Source of the DNA: a bacterium
GTDB taxonomy: Bacteria > UBP7 > UBA6624 > JBBIMK01
Length of the DNA stretch: 12,417 nucleotides
NCBI GenBank assembly: GCA_037444445.1
Contig: JBBIMK010000040.1
Coordinates: 1 to 12,417, forward strand
Direction of reading: 5' to 3'
The position numbers and the translations under genes were made by a program. Shown here one piece after another: positions 2,161-11,219 of this stretch (positions are counted from its first letter, which is position 1; every line of letters begins with the position of its first letter). A model generated the notes under the pieces. It was given only the letters and a program-made list of their open reading frames with translations. It was not told the DNA's origin and ran no database searches.

Positions 2161-2263
2161 GGGTCTACAGCGCCTCCGGGGGACGAGCCTCCGGGAGGGG
2201 TTTGCCTGCCATCCTGTCCATCTTACTTAAAGAGTAATATAACGGATAAAATAGTGCAATGAA

Positions 2264-2292
2264 AGATAGGAGTCAGATAGGGGTCAGATAAT
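2264..2292. promoter_or_regulatory. three AGATA(G/A) half-sites at 11-bp phasing (possible operator)
   Basis: The sequence reads AGATAGGagtc AGATAGGggtc AGATAAT, giving a period of exactly 11 bp, one helical turn. Further GATAA/GATAG copies occur at about 2245 and about 2351. The repeats lie in the divergent intergenic region between the secreted-protein operon and the small wHTH-like ORF. Confidence 0.3.
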
Positions 2293-2378
2293 ATGCCCGT
2301 ATTCTGAAGAGGAGGGGAACCCGGGGGGGGTTTACCCTATGCAGTTTTGTGATAAGATAGTTACCGATGGAGGAGGAA

Positions 2379-2691
2379 ATGGTATCGCTTTTCAGGGAGT
2401 TCCTCTGGAAGGGGTTCAAGAAGCACGATAGTCTGGAGTGTCTGGTGGCGGAAGCCCTGATAAAAGACCTGATTAGAGCGGGGGGGGTACACTTACGAGG
2501 AGTTATTTGAGGTATGCAACCGGAGATGGAAGTATCCCGGAACCTATGAGCCTGGATTGGATAACACCGCTATACACTTAATTTTAAAGCGTTTACGGAA
2601 GCGGATGTGTCGGTATTTTCACGGGAGAGGGTTGCGGGTGGAGGTAGGGAGAGTGAGCCCCGACCGGGTGCGGATATGGGTAATGAGTTAG
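2379..2691 (+). pseudogene. small stand-alone OmpR/PhoB-type winged-helix-like DNA-binding protein, reading frame broken at a G8 homopolymer (2480-2487)
   Basis: An ATG at 2379 is preceded by GGAGGAGG. Frame A reads MVSLFREFLWKGFKKHDSLECLVAEALIKDLIRAGG and stops 8 codons after the G8 run. Frame B (the +1 frame) continues from the G run as YTYEELFEVCNRRWKYPGTYEPGLDNTAIHLILKRLRKRMCRYFHGRGLRVEVGRVSPDRVRIWVMS and stops at 2689-2691. Removing one G fuses the two into a protein of about 103 aa. Its second half resembles the Trans_reg_C pattern (sreeLl..vw......r.vdvhi.rLRkKl). Neither half reaches the ORF-track length cutoff. Confidence 0.45.
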
Positions 2692-2707
2692 GGGGTTTCC
2701 CTTTTTT
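2686..2707 (+). terminator. weak candidate intrinsic terminator after the wHTH-like ORF
   Basis: AGGGGG-ttt-CCCTTTTTT: a short G/C stem (3 GC pairs, extendable with GU and AU pairs), a tight loop and a T6 run at 2702-2707, immediately after the TAG at 2689-2691. The stem is very short. Confidence 0.25.
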
Positions 2708-2862
2708 GAAACTATTTATGGGGAATGGTGGTGGAGGGTGAAGAGTAGCCCGGAGGAATCGGAGTGAATTTCTAAACTACCCTGGCAACTATTCATCGGT
2801 GGTGAGATTATAGTTGAACCTGATGTATCAAAGAGCGAAGATATTTATGATTCTGCGGTATT

Positions 2863-3318: not shown

Positions 3319-3969
3319 TCATCCTCCGACGAGGGTGGAAAGGAAAGGGTCCACGGCCTGGATGGCAGATTCAAAGAGGTAATAGCGGGCGGAGTGGAGG
3401 ATGTCGGACACAGCCTGACGGGTGATATGCAGTTCTTTCGCCACCTTCACCTGGGTTCCGAGGGAGCGGTACAGTTTAGTGACTTCCTTCTGGCGTGCGG
3501 TCCAGGGCTTCCACCGAAGGGTTGAGAGGAAGAGATTCAGGAGGCGTTCTGCACCCGTCAGGTCGGAGCCCAGGCGGAATACTACGGGGCATCGGGCTTT
3601 CCCGGATTGAATCCACATCAATGCCTTTCTGGAGCGTTGAAATACCTCTCCGTCCATCATAAAGGTGCCGCCAGGAAGGATGGGTGTGGACAGGGTGCCA
3701 AAGCCGATGCCAAAAACCGTCTGATGGGGTGCCATCTCCTCCTGAAATGTGCGGACGATGCGAAGAACGCGGGGTGATTCCCCGCCTAACAGTCCTTGAA
3801 ATTCTCTACCGGAGATGAAGTTAAATCGGGACAGGATGGCCTGTTCAAATTGAGAATGAACCAGCTGAAAGACTTCCTTCAGGCGTTTTTGCCCTGTGTC
3901 TTGATTCTTCGCTTTCCGGGAGAATATCCACTCACCCGTCAGGAGAAAATATCGTGGCTGTATTTTCAT
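3319..3969 (-). CDS. SatD-family protein (cyclase-like N-domain plus C-terminal HTH) with substituted acidic motif residues
   Basis: From the ATG at 3969 the protein reads MKIQPRYFLLTGEWIFSRK...FISGREFQGLL...FGIGFG...WTARQKEVTKLYRSLGTQVKVAKELHITRQAVSDILHSARYY. This tracks the SatD (PF16264) pattern GDivnSRk / GDEFQGLL / FGIGiG / HTH as I remember it. The first motif is GEW instead of GD, and the second is GREFQG instead of GDEFQG. The longer ORF-track version (to 4251) overlaps the NYN gene and is not credible. Confidence 0.75.
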   Translation of the reverse strand: MKIQPRYFLLTGEWIFSRKAKNQDTGQKRLKEVFQLVHSQFEQAILSRFNFISGREFQGLLGGESPRVLRIVRTFQEEMAPHQTVFGIGFGTLSTPILPGGTFMMDGEVFQRSRKALMWIQSGKARCPVVFRLGSDLTGAERLLNLFLSTLRWKPWTARQKEVTKLYRSLGTQVKVAKELHITRQAVSDILHSARYYLFESAIQAVDPFLSTLVGG

Positions 3970-4009
3970 ACCCGTCCCTGGATGAACATATTTTGTTGGC
4001 TGTTTTTTT

Positions 4010-4621
4010 CTACGGGGCAGTGTTTGGGAGTTCGGGGTCGTGTTCAGGGACAGGAACCGGCTCCCGTTCCAGCTGGAACTGTTCCAGGAAATCATCCAGG
4101 TAGATATACTGGTCGCAGGCATCCCGAAGGGCATTGGAGGAGTTAGCGCGGAAGACGGCATTTTCCACGATTTTTCCCAGTCGCTGGACTTCTTCCACCA
4201 CCTCCACATAATCACTGTCGCCGGACACCAGCACTGCCACATCATAGGCATTGTGAAAAGCGAGGCTTAAAAGGTCGGTAGCCAGTTTGACATCTGTTCC
4301 CTTTTCCACAAAGCCCAGCCCTCGGGGCTGTTGAAACGCCTGGCGAACCTTCAGGTTTATACCATTTTCATTCGCCCTGGCACGGACGGCATACATAAAA
4401 TCCACCTGCTGTTTGAAGACCTCCGGATTACTTTCCTCCTGGGGGAGGCTGTGATAATAATACACCCGAACCAGTTTTCTTCCTGCCGTCAGGAAGTGGA
4501 AAAATTTCTCGTAATTGATACCAATTCGCACTCCCATTCGCTTGGTGAGTTCCCGGAGGGAGCCGTAAAGATTGGAGCCATCCACGAACAAAATCACGCG
4601 TTCATTGCCACTATTCTTCAT
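4010..4621 (-). CDS. NYN-domain (LabA/DUF88-like, PIN-related) putative ribonuclease
   Basis: Motifs ILFVDGSNLY, EKGTDVKLATD and LVSGDSDY are the three acidic signature blocks of the NYN domain (PF01936). The ATG at 4621 is preceded by GGAGGTAGGAGAA (a good SD). The ORF-track start at 4639 is an upstream GTG. Confidence 0.85.
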   Translation of the reverse strand: MKNSGNERVILFVDGSNLYGSLRELTKRMGVRIGINYEKFFHFLTAGRKLVRVYYYHSLPQEESNPEVFKQQVDFMYAVRARANENGINLKVRQAFQQPRGLGFVEKGTDVKLATDLLSLAFHNAYDVAVLVSGDSDYVEVVEEVQRLGKIVENAVFRANSSNALRDACDQYIYLDDFLEQFQLEREPVPVPEHDPELPNTAP

Positions 4622-4644
4622 TTCTCCTACCTCCAGCACTTACT

Positions 4645-4714: not shown

Positions 4715-6022
4715 GTGGGTGTGCTGGAGTTTGATGGGATAGTGGTAGGTGCGGGGCCGGCGGGTGTGGCTGCCGCTGTGACCATGGCCCGGGGCGGTAT
4801 GAGAACTCTGATGATAGAGAAAGGGCGGAAGCCGGGCGTGAAAAATGTAATGGGTGGCGTCCTGTATACCCGGAGCATCACGCCCATTTTCCCGGAGTTT
4901 TATCAAAATGCCACCCTCATTGAGCGGCCGGTCGTGGAGGAAAATTTCTGGTTTCTTACGAAGGATTCAGCGTTGAAATTCGGCTTCCGAAGTCAGGAAT
5001 TCAATCGGGGGGTTCCGAATGCATTCACGGTGCTTCGGGTGAAGCTGGATGAGTGGGCGGCGAAGGAGGCGAAAAATGCAGGCGCTCTCCTTCTGCCTTC
5101 CACACGGGTGGACGATTTATTGCGAGAAGATGGGCAGATTGTGGGCGTGAGGACTGACCGACCGGAGGGGGATATTCGGGCTTCCGTGGTGGTGCTGGCG
5201 GAAGGTGCCAATCCTTTTCTGGCCATCAAGGCAGGGCTGGTGGAGCCGTTGAAGTCGGACCGGCTCGCCCTGGCCGTGAAAGAAATCATCAGCCTGCCCA
5301 AAGATAAGATTGAGGAGCGTTTTCACTTGAACCCTGGCGATGGCGCTACCCTGGAACTGTTCGGGGATGCGGTAGGCGGTTTGCTGGGCTACGCCTTCAT
5401 CTATACCAATAAAGACAGCCTGTCGGTGGGGCTGGGTGCCATCCTTTCCGACTTCCTCAAGAACCGGGTGAAGCCGTATGAACTGCTGGAAAACTTCAAG
5501 GTTCATCCTGTGGTGAAGCCATTGCTGGAAGGCGGGAAGCCTATGGAGTATATGGCTCACCTGATACCCGAGGCGGGGTTGAGAGCGAACCCGAGGTTCT
5601 ATGCCGATGGCGTGATGGTGGCTGGCGATGCTGCTATGATGGTCAACGCGGTCCATCGGGAGGGCTCCAATTTTGCTTTTGCTTCGGGAAGGATGGCGGG
5701 TGAAACAGCGGTGGAAGCGTTCAAGAGAGGCGATTTCTCCGCCCGCACCCTCTCCGCTTATGAACGACGGTTGAAGGAAAGTTTCATCCTCAAAGACCTG
5801 AAGAAGTATAGAAATCTTACGCCTCTGGTGGAACGGAAGAAAATGGATTTCCTGAAAACCTATCCCGAATGGCTCGTGTTCGCCATCCAGCAAATGTTAT
5901 CGGTGGACGGAGTATCCAAAGGTGAGAAGGAGAAGAGAATCAAGGAGGCGCTGTTCAAGAAAAAAAGCCTCCTGCACGTGGCTTCCGATGTATATCAGTT
6001 GTGGAAAGCCTTCCACGGCTGA
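4715..6022 (+). CDS. fixC: FixC-type FAD-dependent electron-transfer-flavoprotein:quinone oxidoreductase
   Basis: 435 aa. The N-terminal FAD-binding GxGxxG (FDGIVVGAGPAGVAAA), the overall length, the MVAGDAA motif and an immediately following fixX-type gene all support the call. GTG start. Confidence 0.9.
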   Translation: MGVLEFDGIVVGAGPAGVAAAVTMARGGMRTLMIEKGRKPGVKNVMGGVLYTRSITPIFPEFYQNATLIERPVVEENFWFLTKDSALKFGFRSQEFNRGVPNAFTVLRVKLDEWAAKEAKNAGALLLPSTRVDDLLREDGQIVGVRTDRPEGDIRASVVVLAEGANPFLAIKAGLVEPLKSDRLALAVKEIISLPKDKIEERFHLNPGDGATLELFGDAVGGLLGYAFIYTNKDSLSVGLGAILSDFLKNRVKPYELLENFKVHPVVKPLLEGGKPMEYMAHLIPEAGLRANPRFYADGVMVAGDAAMMVNAVHREGSNFAFASGRMAGETAVEAFKRGDFSARTLSAYERRLKESFILKDLKKYRNLTPLVERKKMDFLKTYPEWLVFAIQQMLSVDGVSKGEKEKRIKEALFKKKSLLHVASDVYQLWKAFHG

Positions 6023-6069
6023 ATAAATGATGAGGGAGAGTATCCGTTGAAAGCCAGGAGTTGAAGGCG

Positions 6070-6378
6070 ATGGAAGAGCAGTCACAGTCCCAGAGAATGA
6101 AGATTGAGGATAAGTTGTTTCTGGTGAAGATGAAGGTGGATGAAGGGAATCCACATATATTCATCCGAAATGAGCAGGTATGCTTATCCTGTTATGACAA
6201 GCCCTGCACACTCGTTTGCCCTGCCAATACCTACACCTGGGATGAAGCCAATAAAAAGATTGTGATAGCCTGGGAGAACTGCATAGAGTGTGCGGCTGCG
6301 GAATTGCTGTGTCCTTATTCCAATATCGTCTGGCGCTATCCCCGGGGCGGCTACGGCGTGGAATACAAATTCGGATGA
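6070..6378 (+). CDS. fixX: FixX-type ferredoxin-like protein
   Basis: The translation MKIEDKLFLVKMKVDEGNPHI...CPANTY...CIEC...WRYPRGGYGVEYKFG matches the FixX pattern (KIEDKLY..VDeg.PHI, CPA..Y, YPRGG.GV.F.FG). AGGAG lies 10 nt upstream of the ATG at 6070. Alternative starts are the TTG at 6061 and the ATG at 6097. Confidence 0.85.
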   Translation: MEEQSQSQRMKIEDKLFLVKMKVDEGNPHIFIRNEQVCLSCYDKPCTLVCPANTYTWDEANKKIVIAWENCIECAAAELLCPYSNIVWRYPRGGYGVEYKFG

Positions 6379-6600: not shown

Positions 6601-6729
6601 ATGGCAAGCATAACAAGCATACCCGGCGAGCACCAGCGTATCCCCTTGAAAGCGATTGACTTTCCGGGGAATGAGGTGCTGCAGATAGTGACGAAAGAGC
6701 GTGTAGAATATGAAAGTGACAGGGGGTGA
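6601..6729 (+). CDS. 42-aa micro-ORF upstream of the toxin-antitoxin pair (hypothetical; faint SpoVT/AbrB-like pattern)
   Basis: MASITSIPGEHQRIPLKAIDFPGNEVLQIVTKERVEYESDRG. It has a GAGGTG SD 5-6 nt upstream, lies directly downstream of the TTGCCT/TATAAT promoter, and stops 4 nt before the antitoxin ATG. It is below the ORF-track cutoff. The stretch IPLKAIDFPGNEVLQIV loosely recalls the IPkeir..lgl.pGd.v swapped-hairpin motif. Confidence 0.35.
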   Translation: MASITSIPGEHQRIPLKAIDFPGNEVLQIVTKERVEYESDRG

Positions 6730-6733
6730 AAGA

Positions 6734-6946
6734 ATGAAAACCCTTGAGGAACTGATAAAGGAGTTACCGGCTGAACTCCGGCAAGAGGCAGAAGACTTTG
6801 TAGAATTCCTGCTGGAGAAGCGGCTAAAGAAACCCCGTGGCAAGCCGAACTTCAACTGGGCAGGAGCGCTCAAGGACTTGCGGGACCAATATACATCTGT
6901 GGAACTCCAGCATAAATTATCGGAGTGGAGGATTGGAGAAAAGTGA
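6734..6946 (+). CDS. DUF2281-family antitoxin (VapB-like partner of the PIN toxin)
   Basis: MKTLEELIKELPAELRQEAEDFVEFLLEKR is the typical DUF2281 N-terminus. The SD GGGGGTG lies upstream of the ATG at 6734. The stop overlaps the toxin GTG as GTGA. Confidence 0.8.
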   Translation: MKTLEELIKELPAELRQEAEDFVEFLLEKRLKKPRGKPNFNWAGALKDLRDQYTSVELQHKLSEWRIGEK

Positions 6947-7347
6947 GGCTACTCATAGACACGAGTATCGTCCTCGAAGTGATCTTAGAGCAATCAAAGG
7001 CCGAAGAGGCGCAGACTCTTCTGGGAAAGACTGAGGAACACGAGTTTTTTCTATCCGATTATTCACTACACTCCATAGGGATTCTTCTTTTTCGCCGAAA
7101 GCAGTTCCTTGTCTTTTGGCAATTTTTAAGCGACATGATAATTAATGCTGGAATGGAGGTAACTTCTCTGCCTGTAGAAAACTTGAGGTCGGTTGTTGAG
7201 GTTGCTCAAAGATGCAACCTCGACTTTGACGATGCCTACCAGGCTGAGGTTGCTGAGAAATACAACTTCACCATTGTGAGTTTTGATAGCGACTTTGACC
7301 GCACTGCCCGGGGAAGGAAAGCCCCGGCGGAAATCTTGGGTGGATAA
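6943..7347 (+). CDS. vapC: PIN-domain toxin (VapC family ribonuclease)
   Basis: RLLIDTSIVLEV carries the N-terminal Asp, and LDFDDAYQAEVAEKYNFTIVSFDSDFDR carries the distal acidic residues, in the typical PIN layout. The GTG at 6943 overlaps the antitoxin stop by 4 nt. An alternative GTG lies at 6925. Confidence 0.85.
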   Translation: MRLLIDTSIVLEVILEQSKAEEAQTLLGKTEEHEFFLSDYSLHSIGILLFRRKQFLVFWQFLSDMIINAGMEVTSLPVENLRSVVEVAQRCNLDFDDAYQAEVAEKYNFTIVSFDSDFDRTARGRKAPAEILGG

Positions 7348-7583
7348 TCTATGCGGGGCACCGTCTCGTTCCCCTACCAACCCGTCGAGCACTGTCTGTG
7401 GAAGTTCCGCATACCACGCCGCCCACAACCCTGCATTATAATATCCATTGAGGGAGTGAAGATGCCAGAAAAAAGCAAGTCCTTCTCCAGAATCGGGCGT
7501 GAAAACCTTCTATGGGAATGAGGTGGTAGGGGTGGAGAAATTGGGACTCAGGAGTGGTTAATGAGCAGTAAAGGAGGGTAAAG

Positions 7584-8798
7584 ATGAAAATTCAAATCAA
7601 GAATTTTCGTTCTATTGAGAATCAAGAGATAGAGCTTACGCCCATCACAGTAGTCTATGGGCCAAATGGTGCTGGTAAATCCAGTTTGCTGTATGCTTTA
7701 CTTACTCTCAAAAATGTCATATTGAACCCTAATCAGAATCCCAGTGGATTTTTTAATTACATCTTTGTTAGCCTTGGAAGTTTTGAAGCAGTTGTTTTCG
7801 ATCACCAGAAACGAAACCGCGTTAATTTGGGAATAACGCTGGAAAAGGATGGAACAACTCTGGTGTATCGAGTATCCGTTGGAGAAACCGAAGGAACTTT
7901 TAATCTGGAGATGGAAGAACAGCGATTTAAGGCAAAAATGGAACTCCCTGTTTCATTTCCATATCCGGGAAATCAGCAATTTCAACAGTCTATATCCCTT
8001 GATGAACGGAGTTTTACTGTGGTTTGGAATGGTGTAACGGTGCAGGTTCAAACGGGCGTGCAAACCCAAGAGGCACAAGAGGAAGCAAAGCAAATCGCAA
8101 CTTCTCTTAATACACCTACCGAATTACTCAGGAAAGTTGGCATCGTTCCACAAAAAAGAGGTTTTTCTAAACCGCATTTTCAAAGCGTTCCAGTTTCTCC
8201 TATGATGATAACTGAAGATGAGGTAGCAACATTGCTTTCCACTGACAAGTACTTGGTATCCAGAGTAAGTTTTTACTTGGAGCAAATTCTTGACCGCGAC
8301 TTTAGAGTGAATGTCCAGCCGGGGACGGCCATTTTTTCTCTGGATTCCACAGATAAAAAGACGGGGGTAGCATCGGAATTGGTAAATGAAGGATTTGGAA
8401 TTAATCAAATTGCGTATTTCCTTGCAAGGTGTTTACACCGGGATGTGGAATGGGTTTGCGTAGAGGAGCCGGAGATTCATCTACATCCATCGGCGGTGCG
8501 GGGTGTTGCCCAGGCTTTGGTCAAAATACTTCATGATGAGGGAAAGCATTTTATTATTTCTACGCACAGCGAATCATTTCTTGCTGCCTTACTTGCGCTC
8601 GTTGCTAAGGGCGAACTAAAACCATCTGACTTGGCATGTTACTTTGCTCAGAAAGAGAAAAAGAAAACCAACTTTGAGCGTCAACTCGTGAATGAAAAGG
8701 GGCAGATTGAGGGTGGACTCATGAGTTTTATTGAGGGGGAATTGGAGGATATCAGAGCTTTATTAAAAATTAATAGAGAACCTACTGTAAGATTATAA
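7584..8798 (+). CDS. ABC/SMC-type AAA ATPase (AAA_15/AAA_21-like; C-terminus possibly DUF3696-like), no fused nuclease domain
   Basis: The N-terminus MKIQIKNFRSIENQEIELTPITVVYGPNGAGKSSLLYAL carries Walker A at 7659-7685. A signature-like block reads ELVNEGFGINQIAYFLARCL. Walker B/D-loop is WVCVEEPEIHLHP (about 8451-8489), and the H-loop is IISTHSE. An excellent SD (AAAGGAGGG) lies 6 nt upstream. GC is markedly lower than in neighbouring housekeeping genes. Confidence 0.9.
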   Translation: MKIQIKNFRSIENQEIELTPITVVYGPNGAGKSSLLYALLTLKNVILNPNQNPSGFFNYIFVSLGSFEAVVFDHQKRNRVNLGITLEKDGTTLVYRVSVGETEGTFNLEMEEQRFKAKMELPVSFPYPGNQQFQQSISLDERSFTVVWNGVTVQVQTGVQTQEAQEEAKQIATSLNTPTELLRKVGIVPQKRGFSKPHFQSVPVSPMMITEDEVATLLSTDKYLVSRVSFYLEQILDRDFRVNVQPGTAIFSLDSTDKKTGVASELVNEGFGINQIAYFLARCLHRDVEWVCVEEPEIHLHPSAVRGVAQALVKILHDEGKHFIISTHSESFLAALLALVAKGELKPSDLACYFAQKEKKKTNFERQLVNEKGQIEGGLMSFIEGELEDIRALLKINREPTVRL

Positions 8799-8920
8799 TG
8801 CTCAAATGGAGATAGGGTTCAAGATTTTTTTCCTTAAATTGATAGTTCGCAGACGAGATTTGGAGGTGAGATGAGCTGCTTTTTCAATGTTTTATTATCG
8901 ATGAATGGCTTCTTCACGAC

Positions 8921-9361
8921 TTGCGTGGAGATAACGGGCGAGAGTATCAAGCGAAAGCATATAACTTCTTATGGACATTGAGGAGAAAATGCGACTCAAT
9001 AGTCGTTTTAATTGGGAGTAAATGGATGACAAAAGCATATGAACTCATGGAGCACCATAACAACATTGTTAGGGGAATCAGCAAATTTTTGCACCTCTCA
9101 ATTCTGAATGACCTCAATAAATGTAAAAAGTTGGGAGAAACTGATATAAGTAATGACATACCCCCAGAGCTGAAAAATCATATCTCACATAAAGACCTTT
9201 ACCTTATTCAGTGCTACTATGCGGCAAATGCCACTCTATTTGTGACAACGGAAAGAGAGATATTCGATTTTCTATCCCATTTTTCCCAATTTGATATCAA
9301 ATGTGCGCTTCGGGATGATTTTTTAGCAGAGTATCTTGGTGAAAAAGGTGCTGAATTCTGA
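8921..9361 (+). CDS. hypothetical small protein, possible PIN-like nuclease partner of the ATPase (true start probably upstream, near 8871-8897)
   Basis: 146-aa ORF from the TTG at 8921. The same frame is open back to 8870 and reads DELLFQCFIIDEWLLHDL, a beta-strand plus Asp like a PIN beta1. The C-terminal block HKDLYLIQCYYAANATLFVTTEREIFDF resembles the PIN/DUF4411-like D..li..A...g..vvT.E pattern. It lies on the same strand as the ATPase, 72-122 nt downstream, in the same low-GC composition. A strong SD plus ATG at 8862-8873 is in a different frame (see findings). Confidence 0.55.
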   Translation: MRGDNGREYQAKAYNFLWTLRRKCDSIVVLIGSKWMTKAYELMEHHNNIVRGISKFLHLSILNDLNKCKKLGETDISNDIPPELKNHISHKDLYLIQCYYAANATLFVTTEREIFDFLSHFSQFDIKCALRDDFLAEYLGEKGAEF

Positions 9362-9364
9362 CTC

Positions 9365-9472
9365 ATGCTGTTGACAGACCCATCATCAATTCACCCTTTG
9401 AAGAGCCATCCCGCTACTGGCCCCTATGAAGAGGGTCAACCTGTCCTACCTGCCCGACTTTTGGGTGACTGA
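9365..9472 (+). pseudogene. degraded 5' relic of a type III-like restriction enzyme/helicase (or partner methyltransferase) gene
   Basis: Frame 1 (9373-9426) reads DRPIINSPFEEPSRYWPL and then stops. Frame 2 (9425-9469) reads YEEGQPVLPARLLGD and then stops. An ATG at 9365 is in frame 2. From memory, INSPFxEPxR(H/Y)(F/W) followed by an acidic-Gly segment is the conserved extreme N-terminus of a widespread family of type III-like R-M proteins. Here it is split by a frameshift at a C4 run (9421-9424) and cut off after about 35 codons. Confidence 0.4.
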
Positions 9473-9561
9473 GGTCAGGATGATGTTCCAGGGTGAAACC
9501 AGGGGAGATGAACGCAGAAAAATAGTATCGGCAGTTTCAAAGGGAGAAATGGGGTGGTAAG

Positions 9562-10344
9562 ATGAAGGAGGGGTGGCGGGTTGACCTGGGAAGGATGTGT
9601 TATAAACAGGCGTGGGATTTCCAGCACCGCTTGCACTCCCTTCGGGTTCAGGGTGAAATTCCTGACACGCTGATATTTGTGGAGCATCCGCCAGTGATTA
9701 CCCTCGGTCGCTCGGCGAAGAGCGAACACCTTCGCCTTCCGATGGAAGATGTACAGAAGCGAGGTGTGGAAGTGTTTCAGGTGGAGCGGGGCGGGGATGT
9801 TACCTTCCACGGTCCCGGACAACTGGTGGGCTATCCCATCTTCCGGCTGGAAGAACTGAGAATGGTGCAGGCGTTCGTGAGGAATATAGAACGGTCTATA
9901 GTGGAGGCTTTGAAGACATTCGGAATCCCTGCCTGCACCCTTCCCGGCTACACCGGCGTCTGGGTGGATGCCAGAAATGCAAAACCGGGTGGAGGATTCA
10001 AGATAGCCTCCATTGGCCTCGCCATTCGTCGGGGGGTATCTTTCCACGGCTTCGCTTTGAATGTATCCACCGCTCTTTCCTATTTTGACCTCATCGTGCC
10101 CTGCGGGCTTCCCGAAGTTCAGATGACCTCTATGGAAAAGTGGCTGGGGGAAAAAGTCCTGATGGAAGATGTGAAAGAGGCAATGGCTCGCTCCTTTGAA
10201 CATATCTTCCAACTCTCGCTCATCCCGATGAGGTATGTTCGCGACTTCATCACAGATTCCTTGAGTCCTGTAAGGCCTTCGGATTTGCCTTTCAAAATTG
10301 GTGATGAGCACATTGTCCAGACTCTGACGGGGGGTAGCGAATGA
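9562..10344 (+). CDS. lipB: lipoyl(octanoyl) transferase LipB
   Basis: The conserved blocks are all present: [49 protein letters not shown] (catalytic Lys region) and IVPCGL (catalytic Cys). The stop overlaps the lipA ATG as ATGA. Confidence 0.9.
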
Positions 10345-11219
10345 GTGAGAGCGCGGTGTTAAGACATCCTCCGTGGATACGAACCCGTCTGCCGACTGGA
10401 GAAACTTTTGCTACCACGAAAGCGATTCTGGATGGTTTGAGGCTTACTACGGTGTGCCGGGAAGCCCTCTGCCCGAATATCGGGGAGTGCTGGGGGCACG
10501 GGGTTGCCACCCTTATGGTGCTGGGCGAGATATGCACCCGGGGATGCCGATTCTGCGCCGTCACCACAGGAAATCCAGGAGGCTTTGTGGACCCCACGGA
10601 GCCTCAGCGTGTTGCCACCGCCGTTCAACTCCTGAAACTGAAATATGTGGTCATTACCTCCGTGGACCGGGATGATTTACCCGACCAGGGCGCCGGGCAC
10701 TTCGCTGATTGCGTGAGGGCCATCAAACGCCGAGTTTCCGATGTGCGGGTGGAGGTTCTTACCCCCGACTTCTCCGGTATAGAGTCTTGCATTGATACGG
10801 TGTTAGAATCGGAGCCGGATGTATTCGGGCATAATATAGAGACGGTTCGGAGGCTCACGCCGAAGGTTCGTGACCGGCGTGCAGGTTACGACCAGTCGCT
10901 GAAAGTTCTGGCTTATGCCAGGCAAAAGCGTCCCCAGAAATATACCAAAAGTTCCATTATGTTAGGGCTGGGGGAGGCGGAGGATGAAGTGATAGAAACG
11001 ATGAAAGACCTGCGAAGGGCGGGGGTGGAGTTGCTCGCCCTGGGTCAATACCTTCAGCCCACAAAAAAGCACCTGCCCGTGGTGGAGTATGTGACGCCCG
11101 AGAAGTTTATGAAGTATGGGCATCTGGCTCGCTCACTGGGTTTCAAAGGGGTGGCTTCAGCCCCCTTCGTCCGGTCCTCCTACCGTGCGGATGCCTTAGC
11201 CCGACCCACCCTCCAATAA
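10341..11219 (+). CDS. lipA: lipoyl synthase LipA (radical SAM)
   Basis: CPNIGECW is the auxiliary-cluster motif and [10 protein letters not shown] is the radical-SAM CxxxCxxC. The length of 292 aa and the position directly after lipB also fit. Confidence 0.95.

What the first reader, a model, noticed from the sequence alone, without database searches (positions are those of the whole stretch)
7584..9361. Two-gene module: stand-alone ABC/SMC-type ATPase plus small PIN-like protein, a candidate undescribed anti-phage defence system
Seen in sequence:
- A 404-aa ATPase has intact Walker A (GPNGAGKSS), Walker B/D-loop (EEPEIHLHP) and H-loop (STHSE). It has no recognisable fused effector: I see no TOPRIM, HNH or PLD motifs.
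- It is followed on the same strand by a protein of about 150-165 aa with an N-terminal hydrophobic strand plus Asp (FIIDEW) and a C-terminal D..LI......LFVTTE block, which is arranged like a PIN/DUF4411-type nuclease.
- Both genes are clearly more AT-rich than the flanking fixCX and lipBA genes. Hand-counted 60-nt lines give 35-45% GC versus about 55-67%.

Established knowledge: ATPases of this AAA_15/AAA_21 class act as the sensor or motor partner of a small nuclease effector in many defence systems, including Septu PtuAB, Gabija, PARIS, AbiL and OLD-family systems.

Inference: the pairing with a PIN-like effector, together with the context (VapBC immediately upstream, a restriction-gene relic immediately downstream), fits a compact defence or abortive-infection module. 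I cannot assign it to a named system.
Basis: partly seen in the sequence, partly recalled or inferred. Interest (0 to 1): 0.85.

Follow-up and report, generated by a model that had tools for sequence, protein, structure and literature searches.

The report
ABC ATPase plus PIN-like gene pair
A horizontally acquired two-gene cassette pairs an NsnB/HEC-03-class ABC ATPase with an unannotated PIN-like protein; the pair is conserved across many uncultured bacteria and archaea and is most likely a new sequence family of an already known ATPase-plus-PIN anti-phage or toxin-like design.

Summary
Window 7584-8798 encodes a 404-aa stand-alone OLD/SMC-type ABC ATPase. An open frame at 8876-9361 encodes a 161-aa protein that models confidently (pLDDT 91.6) as a distant PIN-like fold. 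Both genes are AT-rich (GC 0.40 versus 0.52 outside).

The pairing is not chance. In 67 of 69 informative species-level genomes the small gene lies directly downstream of the ATPase (median gap 7 nt). No third gene is conserved, and the two proteins co-diverge (Mantel r = 0.83).

The small family has 546 clusters at 50% identity, all single-domain among those listed. It has no Pfam, PADLOC, NCBIfam or PHROG model. Its signature [N/D]-E-W, K53, D107-x-Y-L and T-T-D126 is nearly invariant.

"Undescribed" is true only at family level. The design (ABC ATPase, then PIN) is that of the validated HEC-03 system and of the Menshen NsnB-NsnC core. The ATPase is a distant relative of NsnB, PDC-M55A and the HEC-03 ATPase (132/120/90 bits).

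Defence context is mixed. The closest relatives sit inside type I and type III R-M loci, and the window keeps a type III res relic. Most distant relatives sit among housekeeping genes.

The window copy itself is atypical: a CTG replaces the GTG start, it carries D126E, and the gene junction is remodelled.

Verdict: new variant of a known kind; moderate interest.

The parts
7573..7578 (+). Shine-Dalgarno-like GGAGGG, 5 nt before the ATPase ATG
   Evidence: Read directly from the sequence.
7584..8798 (+). 404-aa stand-alone ABC (OLD/SMC-type, AAA_15/AAA_21) ATPase, a distant relative of NsnB
   Evidence: ORF. Pfam AAA_15 2.9e-24 and AAA_21 1.3e-23. PADLOC NsnB 1.1e-38 (132 bits, full length), PDC-M55A 4.1e-35, HEC-03 ATPase model 3.6e-26. 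AF2 pLDDT 83.3. Foldseek top hits are SMC, Rad50, PtuA and OLD heads at about 1e-11 to 1e-9.
7659..7685 (+). Walker A, GPNGAGKSS (aa 26-34)
   Evidence: G26, G31, K32 and S33 are invariant in 25 homologues.
8385..8408 (+). Degenerate ABC signature NEGFGINQ (G-x-G type, as described for NsnB)
   Evidence: N268, G270, G272 and Q275 are invariant. The NsnB G-x-G signature is described in PMC12065111.
8454..8489 (+). Walker B/D-loop VCVEEPEIHLHP (E-E in place of the usual D-E)
   Evidence: E294, E295, P296, E297, H299, L300, H301 and P302 are invariant.
8559..8573 (+). H-loop STHSE
8616..8762 (+). C-terminal beta-hairpin (aa 350-367) and helix (aa 380-393) of the ATPase. This is the candidate partner-binding tail and is faintly DUF3696-like.
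   Evidence: AF2 secondary structure. Y353, K357, G373, G377, G378, L379, F382, E386 and D389 are invariant. DUF3696 is sub-threshold: E 0.028 here, and 5 of 25 members with best E 0.002. The best plasmid tblastn hits, which cover this tail, are all annotated 'DUF3696 domain-containing protein'.
8799..8875 (+). Unusually long 77-nt spacer between the two genes. It contains GGAGGTGA (8862-8869) and an out-of-frame ATG at 8871.
   Evidence: The family median gap is 7 nt and 64 of 67 gaps are at most 30 nt. The gap is 16-22 nt in the closest relatives L086-L088.
8876..9361 (+). 161-aa PIN-like protein of an unannotated family. The inferred start is CTG 8876. The first canonical start is TTG 8921, and the database call begins at ATG 9026.
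   Evidence: Homologues align from 'MxxxCFIINEW'. GTG in L086-L088 aligns to CTG 8876. AF2 pLDDT 91.6 and pTM 0.85. The best Foldseek PDB hits are all PIN domains at E 0.009-0.1 and TM 0.43-0.54. There are 546 cluster representatives at E<=1e-3.
8900..8908 (+). D9-E10-W11 directly after beta-strand 1, the position of the first PIN acidic residue
   Evidence: Position 9 is N or D in 195/195, position 10 is E in 191/195 (4 D), and W11 is in 195/195. Strand 1 spans aa 5-8.
9194..9205 (+). D107-L-Y-L at the N-terminus of the helix before strand 4. It matches the PIN 'D..hhA' third acidic motif.
   Evidence: D107 199/199, Y109 197/199, L110 198/199. Helix 105-116 and strand 121-124.
9245..9253 (+). 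T124-T125-E126 after strand 4 (PIN 'hhT.D' motif). The family has D at position 126.
   Evidence: D126 in 196/198. The window is one of only two members with E.
9367..9469 (+). Frameshifted 5' relic of a type III restriction (res) gene. It marks the end of the acquired island.
   Evidence: tblastn gives 94% identity over 18 aa to the L087 Res N-terminus. The continuation 'EGQPVLPA' lies in another frame. The L087 791-aa ORF directly downstream of that N-terminal piece hits PADLOC REase_III, and its neighbour hits MTase_III.

Best explanation
The cassette is a two-gene conflict module, meaning an anti-phage or abortive-infection system with toxin-antitoxin-like behaviour. It follows the 'ABC ATPase sensor/regulator + PIN nuclease effector' design.

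Shown:
- The ATPase is a stand-alone OLD/SMC-type ABC ATPase with intact ATP-binding and hydrolysis motifs.
- The downstream protein has a PIN-like fold with a nearly invariant polar and acidic constellation.
- The two genes are tightly coupled, are inherited together, and need no third conserved gene.
- The cassette is compositionally foreign. In the window's closest relatives it is embedded in R-M loci.

Inferred:
- The ATPase oligomerises, as the predicted NsnB tetramer model and the solved GajA, PtuA and AriA assemblies do.
- It holds the PIN-like protein through its conserved C-terminal hairpin and helix.
- On a phage- or stress-derived cue, and coupled to ATP binding or hydrolysis, it activates or releases the PIN-like protein.
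- The PIN-like protein then cleaves RNA, probably tRNA, rRNA or mRNA, and arrests the infected cell.

In this particular genome the effector gene may be weakly expressed or decaying.
For: Pair conservation:
- The small homologue lies directly downstream of the ATPase in 67 of 72 loci. Three of the other five are contig ends. The median gap is 7 nt.
- The pair also occurs in all 14 metagenome or MAG loci fetched separately (L001-L005 and L086-L089 with an intact or disrupted downstream gene, L094-L098).
- Divergent ATPases (L076, L081, L085) are followed by about 155-aa proteins with the same D-E, D-x-Y/H-L/F and T-x-D motifs.
- No third gene is conserved. The next largest neighbour cluster covers 8 loci.
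- The two proteins co-diverge: Mantel r = 0.83, with 0 of 999 permutations reaching it.

Fold and active site:
- AF2 gives pLDDT 91.6, and all top Foldseek hits are PIN domains.
- A few members give faint Pfam PIN_4, PIN_9 or PIN_3 hits.
- E10, K53, D107 and D126 are essentially invariant in 199 diverse members.

ATPase relationships:
- The best PADLOC hits are NsnB, PDC-M55A, AriA and the HEC-03 ATPase.
- The ABC fold is confirmed.

Precedents:
- HEC-03 is an ABC ATPase + PIN system in which both genes are required for phage defence.
- AlphaFold 3 models in the Menshen paper have the NsnB DUF3696 tails clamping the NsnC PIN-like domain.
- OLD-ABC + PIN pairings are reported.

Context:
- L086 reads HsdS | pair | HsdS relic | HEC-01.
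- L087 reads type III Mod | DUF262 | res relic | pair | Res.
- L088 has an integrase, BrnTA and SNF2 nearby.
- The window has VapBC upstream and a res relic downstream.
- Cassette GC is 0.40 against 0.52, and GC3 is 0.37 against 0.60-0.66.
Against: - There is no experimental data for this family.
- Immediate neighbours in 62 species-level genomes are mostly housekeeping genes (adh_short, SufBD, BirA, TatD, RF3). Only a handful gave PADLOC hits.
- Three Chloroflexi genomes keep the pair in one metabolic gene cluster.
- The fold match is weak. No Foldseek E-value is below 1e-3 and TM is about 0.43-0.54.
- hhalign finds no similarity to VapC, the HEC-03 PIN or PDC-M55B.
- The canonical second PIN acidic residue (E after strand 2) is absent, and the first is usually N followed by E.
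- The small protein has no hit on PLSDB plasmids or INPHARED phages.
- The window copy has no canonical start at the conserved N-terminus, carries D126E, and has a remodelled 77-nt junction.
Confidence: 0.6

Rival explanations
1. The pair is a pure addiction or toxin-antitoxin-like selfish cassette. The PIN-like protein is a toxin, the ATPase is its proteinaceous neutraliser, and there is no dedicated anti-phage role.
For: - The cassette is solitary and scattered between housekeeping genes.
- It often lies beside classical TA pairs: VapBC in the window, HepT/MNT or HEPN/NTP_transf_2 in L089 and L098, and BrnTA in L088.
- The genes are tightly, probably translationally, coupled.
- Pfam itself labels AAA_21 as a 'putative AbiEii toxin, Type IV TA system' domain.
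Against: - A 400-aa ATPase with conserved catalytic motifs is an expensive antitoxin.
- The gene order (large regulator first, small toxin second) and the architecture match the validated defence system HEC-03.
- The closest relatives are embedded in R-M loci.
- TA and abortive-infection roles are not mutually exclusive.
Confidence: 0.15
2. The PIN-like protein is a catalytically inactive adaptor, like the Menshen 'inPIN' domains. The pair would then be a reduced or decayed Menshen-like system that has lost NsnA and the nuclease domain. In this window it may be non-functional.
For: - The best PADLOC match of the ATPase is NsnB.
- NsnC N-terminal domains are PIN-like and are modelled as binding the NsnB tail.
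- The canonical PIN E2 is missing and the first acidic position is mostly N.
- L087 has a DUF262 gene (hits to NsnA, PDC-M55C and HEC-05) two genes upstream.
- The window copy has a CTG at the start position, D126E and a remodelled junction.
Against: - E10, K53, D107 and D126 are invariant or nearly so across 199 members at no more than 50% mutual identity. The paper reports that inPIN domains lack conserved catalytic residues.
- All 150 listed representatives are single-domain, and the pair is conserved without NsnA in 67 genomes. This is a stable architecture, not sporadic decay.
- The window ORF is intact over 161 codons.
Confidence: 0.15
3. The pair has a housekeeping or stress role in nucleic-acid metabolism, for example ATP-controlled RNA processing or quality control, rather than a role in conflict.
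For: - Neighbours are mostly metabolic or translation genes.
- Three Chloroflexi assemblies share the same synteny inside a same-strand metabolic cluster.
- Many Dehalococcoidia genomes carry the pair.
Against: - The distribution across bacteria and archaea is patchy.
- Neighbourhoods differ between lineages.
- The composition here is foreign.
- The closest relatives are embedded in R-M loci or lie next to an integrase.
- The nearest characterised ATPase relatives all belong to defence systems.
- Some copies are disrupted, for example L089.
Confidence: 0.1

Closest known systems
HEC-03 (Hma-embedded candidate 3; Payne et al., bioRxiv 10.1101/2024.01.29.577857)
   Same: - It is a two-gene system of a stand-alone ABC ATPase followed, on the genuine plasmid copies, by a small single-domain PIN protein of about 150-180 aa. 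The genes abut or overlap.
- Both genes are required for phage defence.
- It was found embedded in other immune loci, as the window's closest relatives are.
- The ATPases belong to the same DUF3696/NsnB-like clade: the genuine HEC-03 ATPase also hits NsnB (199 bits) and PDC-M55A (193 bits).
   Different: - They are different sequence families. The window ATPase scores 90 bits on the HEC-03 ATPase model, against 445 bits for a genuine plasmid copy.
- None of 33 small-family members hits the HEC-03 PIN model, and hhalign probability is 0.1%.
- The HEC-03 PIN has the canonical 'IDTNVL' first motif. This family has 'h-N/D-E-W' and an invariant lysine.
- The ATPase here is about 65 aa shorter (404 versus 469 aa).
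- HEC-03 loci on the three plasmids inspected carry a third conserved 'RNA ligase family' gene. This family has none.
Menshen (NsnA-NsnB-NsnC; Millman et al. 2022, from my own knowledge; domain analysis in PMC12065111)
   Same: - The best PADLOC match of the ATPase is NsnB, over its full length.
- Features shared with the published NsnB description: E instead of D at the first Walker B position, a G-x-G signature, R192 where I provisionally place the Q-loop, and a C-terminal tail after the ABC head.
- The downstream partner begins with, and here consists only of, a PIN-like domain. In AlphaFold 3 models that domain is clamped by two NsnB tails.
   Different: - There is no NsnA (ParB-DUF262) gene.
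- The partner has no C-terminal nuclease domain: all 150 listed representatives are 112-179 aa.
- The PIN-like domain keeps invariant acidic residues, whereas inPIN domains are reported to lack them.
- The partner co-diverges with the ATPase rather than being shuffled.
- The NsnB score is 132 bits and DUF3696 is sub-threshold.
PDC-M55 (untested PADLOC candidate with at least three components, A, B and C)
   Same: The ATPase hits PDC-M55A at 4.1e-35 over its full length. In L087 a DUF262 protein that hits PDC-M55C (2e-20) lies nearby.
   Different: A genuine PDC-M55A scores 267 bits and its 352-aa partner hits PDC-M55B. No member of the small family hits PDC-M55B, and hhalign probability is 0.55%. 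No C component is conserved.
PARIS (AriA/AriB), Septu (PtuA/PtuB), Gabija and OLD-family nucleases
   Same: All use an OLD-type ABC ATPase as sensor or regulator of a nuclease. Foldseek finds PtuA and OLD among the best structural matches, and PADLOC finds AriA, GajA and Old at 1e-27 to 1e-13. In the published structures an ATPase dimer binds one effector (summarised).
   Different: Their effectors are Toprim or HNH domains, either fused or separate. None is present here.
VapBC type II toxin-antitoxin (PIN toxin)
   Same: Both have a small PIN-fold protein as the probable RNase toxin in a compact two-gene cassette. A true VapBC pair sits immediately upstream at 6710-7347.
   Different: The partner is a 404-aa ATPase, not a small DNA-binding antitoxin. 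There is no sequence or profile similarity to VapC.

Membership tests
Menshen (NsnABC) | An NsnA gene (ParB-DUF262 + ParBDB) immediately upstream of the ATPase | tested here: not met
   The upstream genes are VapB and VapC. No third gene family is conserved across 74 loci. Only L087 has a DUF262 gene, and a res relic separates it from the pair.
Menshen (NsnABC) | NsnB: an AAA_15 ABC ATPase with a C-terminal DUF3696 tail | tested here: inconclusive
   NsnB is the best PADLOC hit but scores only 132 bits, against 193-199 bits for two plasmid DUF3696 ATPases. DUF3696 reaches E 0.028 here and is seen in 5 of 25 members, always below the Pfam threshold. A conserved C-terminal hairpin and helix is present.
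Menshen (NsnABC) | NsnC: an N-terminal inactive PIN-like domain fused to a C-terminal nuclease or toxin domain | tested here: not met
   The partner is single-domain. It is 161 aa here and 112-179 aa in all 150 listed representatives. Its acidic residues are conserved.
HEC-03 | A two-gene operon of a stand-alone ABC ATPase and a single-domain PIN protein | tested here: met
   The architecture of genuine copies (ATPase first, then PIN) is seen in L090, L092 and L093.
HEC-03 | Sequence membership in the HEC-03 ATPase and PIN families (PADLOC PDLC04148 and PDLC04147) | tested here: not met
   The ATPase scores 90 bits, on its C-terminal half only, against 445 bits for a genuine copy. The small protein gives no hit in 33 members, while the genuine PIN scores 81 bits. 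hhalign probability is 0.1%.
HEC-03 | Anti-phage activity that requires both genes | not testable with these tools
   This needs cloning and phage challenge.
PDC-M55 | PDC-M55A, B and C proteins present together | tested here: not met
   A scores 120 bits, against 267 bits for a genuine copy. B is not hit by any member. C is absent from the window.
PIN-domain-like superfamily | A three-layer alpha/beta/alpha fold with five parallel strands | tested here: met
   AF2 (pLDDT 91.6) gives five strands alternating with helices. The best Foldseek PDB hits are PIN domains (HARP/PRORP, PAE2754, PAE0151, Rrp44 PIN, VapC, EST1A), but only at E 0.009-0.3 and TM 0.43-0.54.
PIN-domain-like superfamily | Four conserved acidic residues (D after strand 1, E after strand 2, D before strand 4, D after strand 4) | tested here: inconclusive
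   Three positions are occupied: N/D9-E10, D107 and D126. The E after strand 2 is absent, and an invariant K53 lies in that helix. Spatial clustering was not checked.
OLD / Gabija / PARIS / Septu | A Toprim or HNH nuclease fused to, or encoded next to, the ABC ATPase | tested here: not met
   Neither protein contains such a domain.
VapBC type II TA | A small DNA-binding antitoxin gene upstream of a Pfam-PIN toxin | tested here: not met
   The upstream partner is a 404-aa ATPase. The small protein has no Pfam PIN hit, and hhalign against VapC gives probability 0.2%.

The most novel reading that the evidence does not exclude
The pair defines a previously unrecognised, widespread defence family. 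It occurs in tens of verified and probably several hundred species, including Dehalococcoidia, Acidobacteriota, Chitinophagaceae, Armatimonadota, WOR-3, Thermoplasmata, Methanofastidiosia and Terraquivivens.

On this reading it is a minimal 'Menshen/HEC-03 core'. An NsnB-like ATPase directly controls a catalytically active, non-canonical PIN-like nuclease with an N/D-E-W...K...D-x-Y-L...T-T-D site.

It would then represent the ancestral active state from which the inactive NsnC 'inPIN' adaptor domains derive. It would also be a system that spreads by recombination into conserved ends of R-M genes.
Probability: 0.35. Interest if true: 0.65.

Novelty: new variant of a known kind. Interest (0 to 1): 0.5.

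Why it matters
If functional, the pair adds a new family to the ABC-ATPase-anchored immune systems. Neither protein belongs to a family with a dedicated model: the ATPase gets only moderate hits to related PADLOC models, and the PIN-like family has no Pfam, PADLOC, NCBIfam or PHROG model. The pair is largely confined to uncultured bacteria and archaea, where defence repertoires are poorly charted.

It is also a compact two-protein model for a current open question: how NsnB/HEC-03-type ATPases hold and release a PIN-like partner. The invariant E/K/D/D constellation gives immediately testable point mutants.

The duplicated R-M gene fragments that flank close relatives hint at how such cassettes become embedded in R-M loci.

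For annotation, the small gene is mis-called in this record (111 aa instead of about 161) and is unnamed everywhere.

Tried and rejected
Searches that found nothing or nothing usable:
- Pfam, PADLOC, NCBIfam and PHROGs on the small protein gave no hit.
- 33 diverse members against PADLOC gave only two chance-level hits. Against Pfam they gave only faint PIN_9, PIN_4 and PIN_3 hits in a few members.
- A profile search of PDB sequences found nothing meaningful.
- hhalign of the family against the window's VapC, the HEC-03 PIN (alone and as a 3-sequence alignment) and PDC-M55B all gave probability below 1%. The templates were shallow, so this is a weak negative.
- Foldseek against viral structures gave nothing significant.
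- tblastn of the small protein against PLSDB plasmids and INPHARED phages gave no match.
- Rfam found nothing in the cassette or in the whole window.
- The promoter and terminator scan was not above shuffled expectation.
- The Menshen paper's supplements are not held, so a direct comparison with the 35 inPIN families was impossible.

Ideas considered and rejected:
- A third conserved gene, such as NsnA or an RNA ligase. None was found.
- A fusion form of the small protein. None appears among the 150 listed representatives.
- A programmed -1 frameshift from ATG 8871 over 'C TTT TTC' into the PIN frame. This is possible on paper but unsupported. A GTG-to-CTG change at the ancestral start is simpler.
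There is no evidence for it.


Full report
**1. What is in the window**

The + strand between fixC/fixX (4715-6378) and lipB/lipA (9562-11219) carries four accessory features:
- A VapBC pair: a DUF2281 antitoxin at 6710-6946 and a PIN toxin at 6925-7347.
- A 404-aa ORF at 7584-8798.
- A further open frame that ends at 9361.
- A short relic at 9367-9469.

The 404-aa protein matches only ATPase models: AAA_15 at 2.9e-24 and AAA_21 at 1.3e-23.

The AlphaFold2 model of the ATPase (pLDDT 83.3, pTM 0.84) is an ABC head followed by a beta-hairpin (aa 350-367) and a helix (aa 380-393). Its best structural matches are SMC, Rad50, PtuA and OLD heads. No nuclease domain is fused to it.

The cassette has GC 0.403 against 0.518 outside it, and GC3 of 0.37 against 0.60-0.66 in the flanking housekeeping genes. 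It is therefore compositionally foreign.

**2. The small gene and its start**

The frame is open from the stop at 8867. The first ATG/GTG/TTG is TTG 8921, and the public record called only 111 aa.

In the three closest relatives the gene starts at a GTG that follows a GGAGG and lies 16-22 nt after the ATPase stop. That GTG aligns codon for codon with CTG 8876 in the window, which follows GGAGGTGA.

The window also differs from the family in three other ways:
- Its spacer is 77 nt, against a family median of 7 nt.
- Its ATPase C-terminus is a few residues longer than in those relatives.
- It has an out-of-frame ATG at 8871.

So the window copy either initiates at CTG or is beginning to decay. 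The 161-codon frame is otherwise intact.

**3. Is the pairing real?**

Yes.
The 80 best were kept.
- An HMM of the small protein finds a homologue directly downstream, on the same strand, in 67 of the 72 loci with a strong ATPase match. Three of the other five are contig ends.
- The same holds in the metagenome and MAG loci fetched independently.
- More divergent ATPases (L076, L081, L085) are followed by about 155-aa proteins with the same motif pattern.
- No third gene family is conserved. The next neighbour cluster covers 8 loci.
- Pairwise identities of the two proteins are strongly correlated: Mantel r = 0.83, with 0 of 999 permutations reaching it. The genes travel and diverge together.
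- Carriers include Dehalococcoidia, Acidobacteriota, Chitinophagaceae, Armatimonadota, WOR-3, Spirochaetota and several archaea. This is a patchy, cross-domain distribution.

**4. What is the small protein?**

It matches no model in Pfam, PADLOC, NCBIfam or PHROGs. Among 33 diverse members only a few give faint PIN_9, PIN_4 or PIN_3 hits.

An exhaustive HMMER search finds 546 cluster representatives at E<=1e-3. All 150 that were listed are single-domain proteins of 112-179 aa.

AlphaFold2 gives a confident model (pLDDT 91.6, pTM 0.85) with five strands alternating with helices. The best PDB matches are PIN domains: HARP/PRORP, PAE2754, PAE0151, Rrp44 PIN, VapC and EST1A. They are weak, at E 0.009-0.3 and TM 0.43-0.54. 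It is best described as a distant PIN-like fold.

Conservation across 199 members at no more than 50% mutual identity:

| Position | Residue | Count |
|---|---|---|
| 9 | N or D | 195/195 |
| 10 | E | 191/195 (4 D) |
| 11 | W | 195/195 |
| 53 | K | 199/199 |
| 107 | D | 199/199 |
| 109 | Y | 197/199 |
| 110 | L | 198/199 |
| 126 | D | 196/198 |

By secondary-structure position, N/D9-E10 follows strand 1. D107 opens the helix before strand 4, like the 'D..hhA' motif visible in the window's own VapC. T-T-D126 follows strand 4, like 'hhT.D'. These are three of the four classical PIN acidic sites. The glutamate expected after strand 2 is missing, and an invariant lysine sits in that helix.

I infer a functional but non-canonical active site. 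I could not check the three-dimensional clustering. The window protein is one of only two members with E at position 126.

**5. Relation to known systems**

The ATPase's best PADLOC hits are NsnB (132 bits, full length), PDC-M55A (120 bits), AriA (94 bits) and the HEC-03 ATPase model (90 bits). The order is the same for all 25 homologues.

Genuine systems found on plasmids serve as calibration:
- An Aeromonas HEC-03 ATPase scores 445 bits on its model, and its 177-aa PIN scores 81 bits.
- A Bacillus PDC-M55A scores 267 bits, and its partner hits PDC-M55B.
- Both of these ATPases also hit NsnB at 193-199 bits.

So the window ATPase is a separate, more distant branch of the same DUF3696/NsnB-like clade. 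It shares with the published NsnB description a Walker B that begins with E, a G-x-G signature, an arginine (R192) that I provisionally place at the Q-loop, and a C-terminal tail. The DUF3696 match itself stays below threshold.

From the literature:
- HEC-03 is an ABC ATPase + VapC-like PIN pair in which both genes are required for phage defence (10.1101/2024.01.29.577857).
- OLD-ABC ATPases paired with PIN endoRNases are reported around BREX (PMC12839542).
- In Menshen, AlphaFold 3 models have two NsnB DUF3696 tails clamping the inactive PIN-like N-domain of NsnC. Those inPIN domains lack catalytic residues and are fused to a separate nuclease domain (PMC12065111).

The present pair has the HEC-03 architecture but not its sequences. 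It has the Menshen NsnB-NsnC core but lacks NsnA and the effector domain, and its PIN-like domain keeps conserved acidic residues.

**6. Context**

The closest relatives (ATPase 70-75% identical) sit in immune or mobile contexts:
- L086: HsdS | pair | HsdS C-terminal relic | HEC-01 A/B | zeta-like toxin.
- L087: type III Mod | DUF262 protein | res N-terminal relic | pair | Res.
- L088: integrase | pair | apparent res-like relic (read from the translation only), with BrnTA and SNF2 nearby.

Elsewhere the picture is different. The immediate neighbours of the pair in 62 species-level genomes are mostly housekeeping genes, with only a handful of PADLOC hits. Three Chloroflexi genomes keep the pair in one metabolic cluster. 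L098 has it inside the gatCAB region beside a HEPN/NTP-transferase pair.

This is the distribution of small TA-like cassettes rather than of classic defence islands. The small protein was not found on PLSDB plasmids or INPHARED phages.

**7. Most likely mechanism**

What is shown: an ATP-competent ABC ATPase, a PIN-like partner with an invariant polar site, strict gene coupling and co-divergence, foreign composition, and R-M embedding in near relatives.

What is inferred by analogy with Menshen, HEC-03, PARIS and Septu:
- The ATPase oligomer sequesters or positions the PIN-like protein through its conserved C-terminal hairpin and helix.
- A phage-derived cue, coupled to ATP binding or hydrolysis, activates or releases the PIN-like protein.
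- The PIN-like protein then cleaves RNA and causes growth arrest, that is, abortive infection.

I put this at about 0.6. The rivals are:
- A pure addiction module (0.15).
- An inactive-adaptor or decayed Menshen-like remnant, possibly non-functional in this window (0.15).
- A housekeeping role (0.10).

**8. Verdict**

The pair is unassigned at family level, and the small family is unannotated. But the kind of system is already known and validated, so this is a new variant of a known kind.

Interest is moderate (0.5). It is a clean and widespread two-protein model for NsnB-type ATPase control of a PIN-like partner, and it comes with ready-made point mutants. A specialist would not find it surprising in principle.

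Noticed in passing
window 4010-4639 (-): A 209-aa NYN-domain protein (Pfam NYN 7.2e-27) hits the PADLOC candidate HEC-09 (6.4e-18). It overlaps a 310-aa ORF at 3319-4251 on the same strand by about 240 nt. It may be another RNase-type defence or TA gene in this neighbourhood.
   Followed up: partly
window 6710-7347 (+): A VapBC-type pair lies immediately upstream of the cassette: a DUF2281 antitoxin (8.3e-19) overlapping a PIN toxin (6.7e-15). Its GC (0.46-0.49) is intermediate, so the accessory region probably starts here rather than at 7584.
   Followed up: partly
window 2260-2860: About 600 bases have no ORF of 50 aa or more on either strand, a strong G-over-C skew (+0.36 to +0.39), and an 11-nt tandem repeat (AGATAGGAGTC x2.5) at 2264-2290. 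There is no Rfam match. Unexplained.
   Followed up: partly
window 8871-8981 (+): An out-of-frame ATG lies 4 nt after the GGAGG and opens a 36-aa ORF across the start of the PIN-like gene. It runs over 'C TTT TTC', where a -1 slip would enter the PIN frame. There is no evidence that this is used.
   Followed up: no
L087 3967-4320 and 6064-6756; L086 3138-3377: In close relatives the pair is flanked by duplicated fragments of the host R-M gene. L087 has the res N-terminus on both sides (57% identity over 63 aa). L086, read from the translation only, has an apparent HsdS C-terminal relic after the pair. This suggests insertion or exchange by recombination at conserved R-M gene ends.
   Followed up: partly
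L089 about 9215-9700: In this relative the PIN-like gene is interrupted inside the invariant NEWL/HDL motif by an AT-rich insertion of roughly 60-70 nt that carries stop codons. The gene is also truncated later. It is a pseudogene or an assembly artefact.
   Followed up: no
L090 5022-5723; L092 4024-4716; L093 4022-4723: Genuine HEC-03 loci on Aeromonas and Azotobacter plasmids carry a conserved third gene, annotated 'RNA ligase family protein', directly after the PIN gene. It has no PADLOC model. It might repair or counteract RNA cleavage.
   Followed up: no
PADLOC models PDLC04147 and PDLC04148: PADLOC 2.0 names the HEC-03 PIN model 'HEC-03A' and the ATPase model 'HEC-03B'. The preprint text uses the opposite labels (HEC-03A for the ATPase, HEC-03B for the PIN).
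   Followed up: yes
window 8770-8799 (+): A promoter-like site (TTAATA-18-TATAAT, 10 of 12) overlaps the end of the ATPase gene, ahead of the unusually long spacer. The overall count of such sites is not above the shuffled expectation.
   Followed up: no
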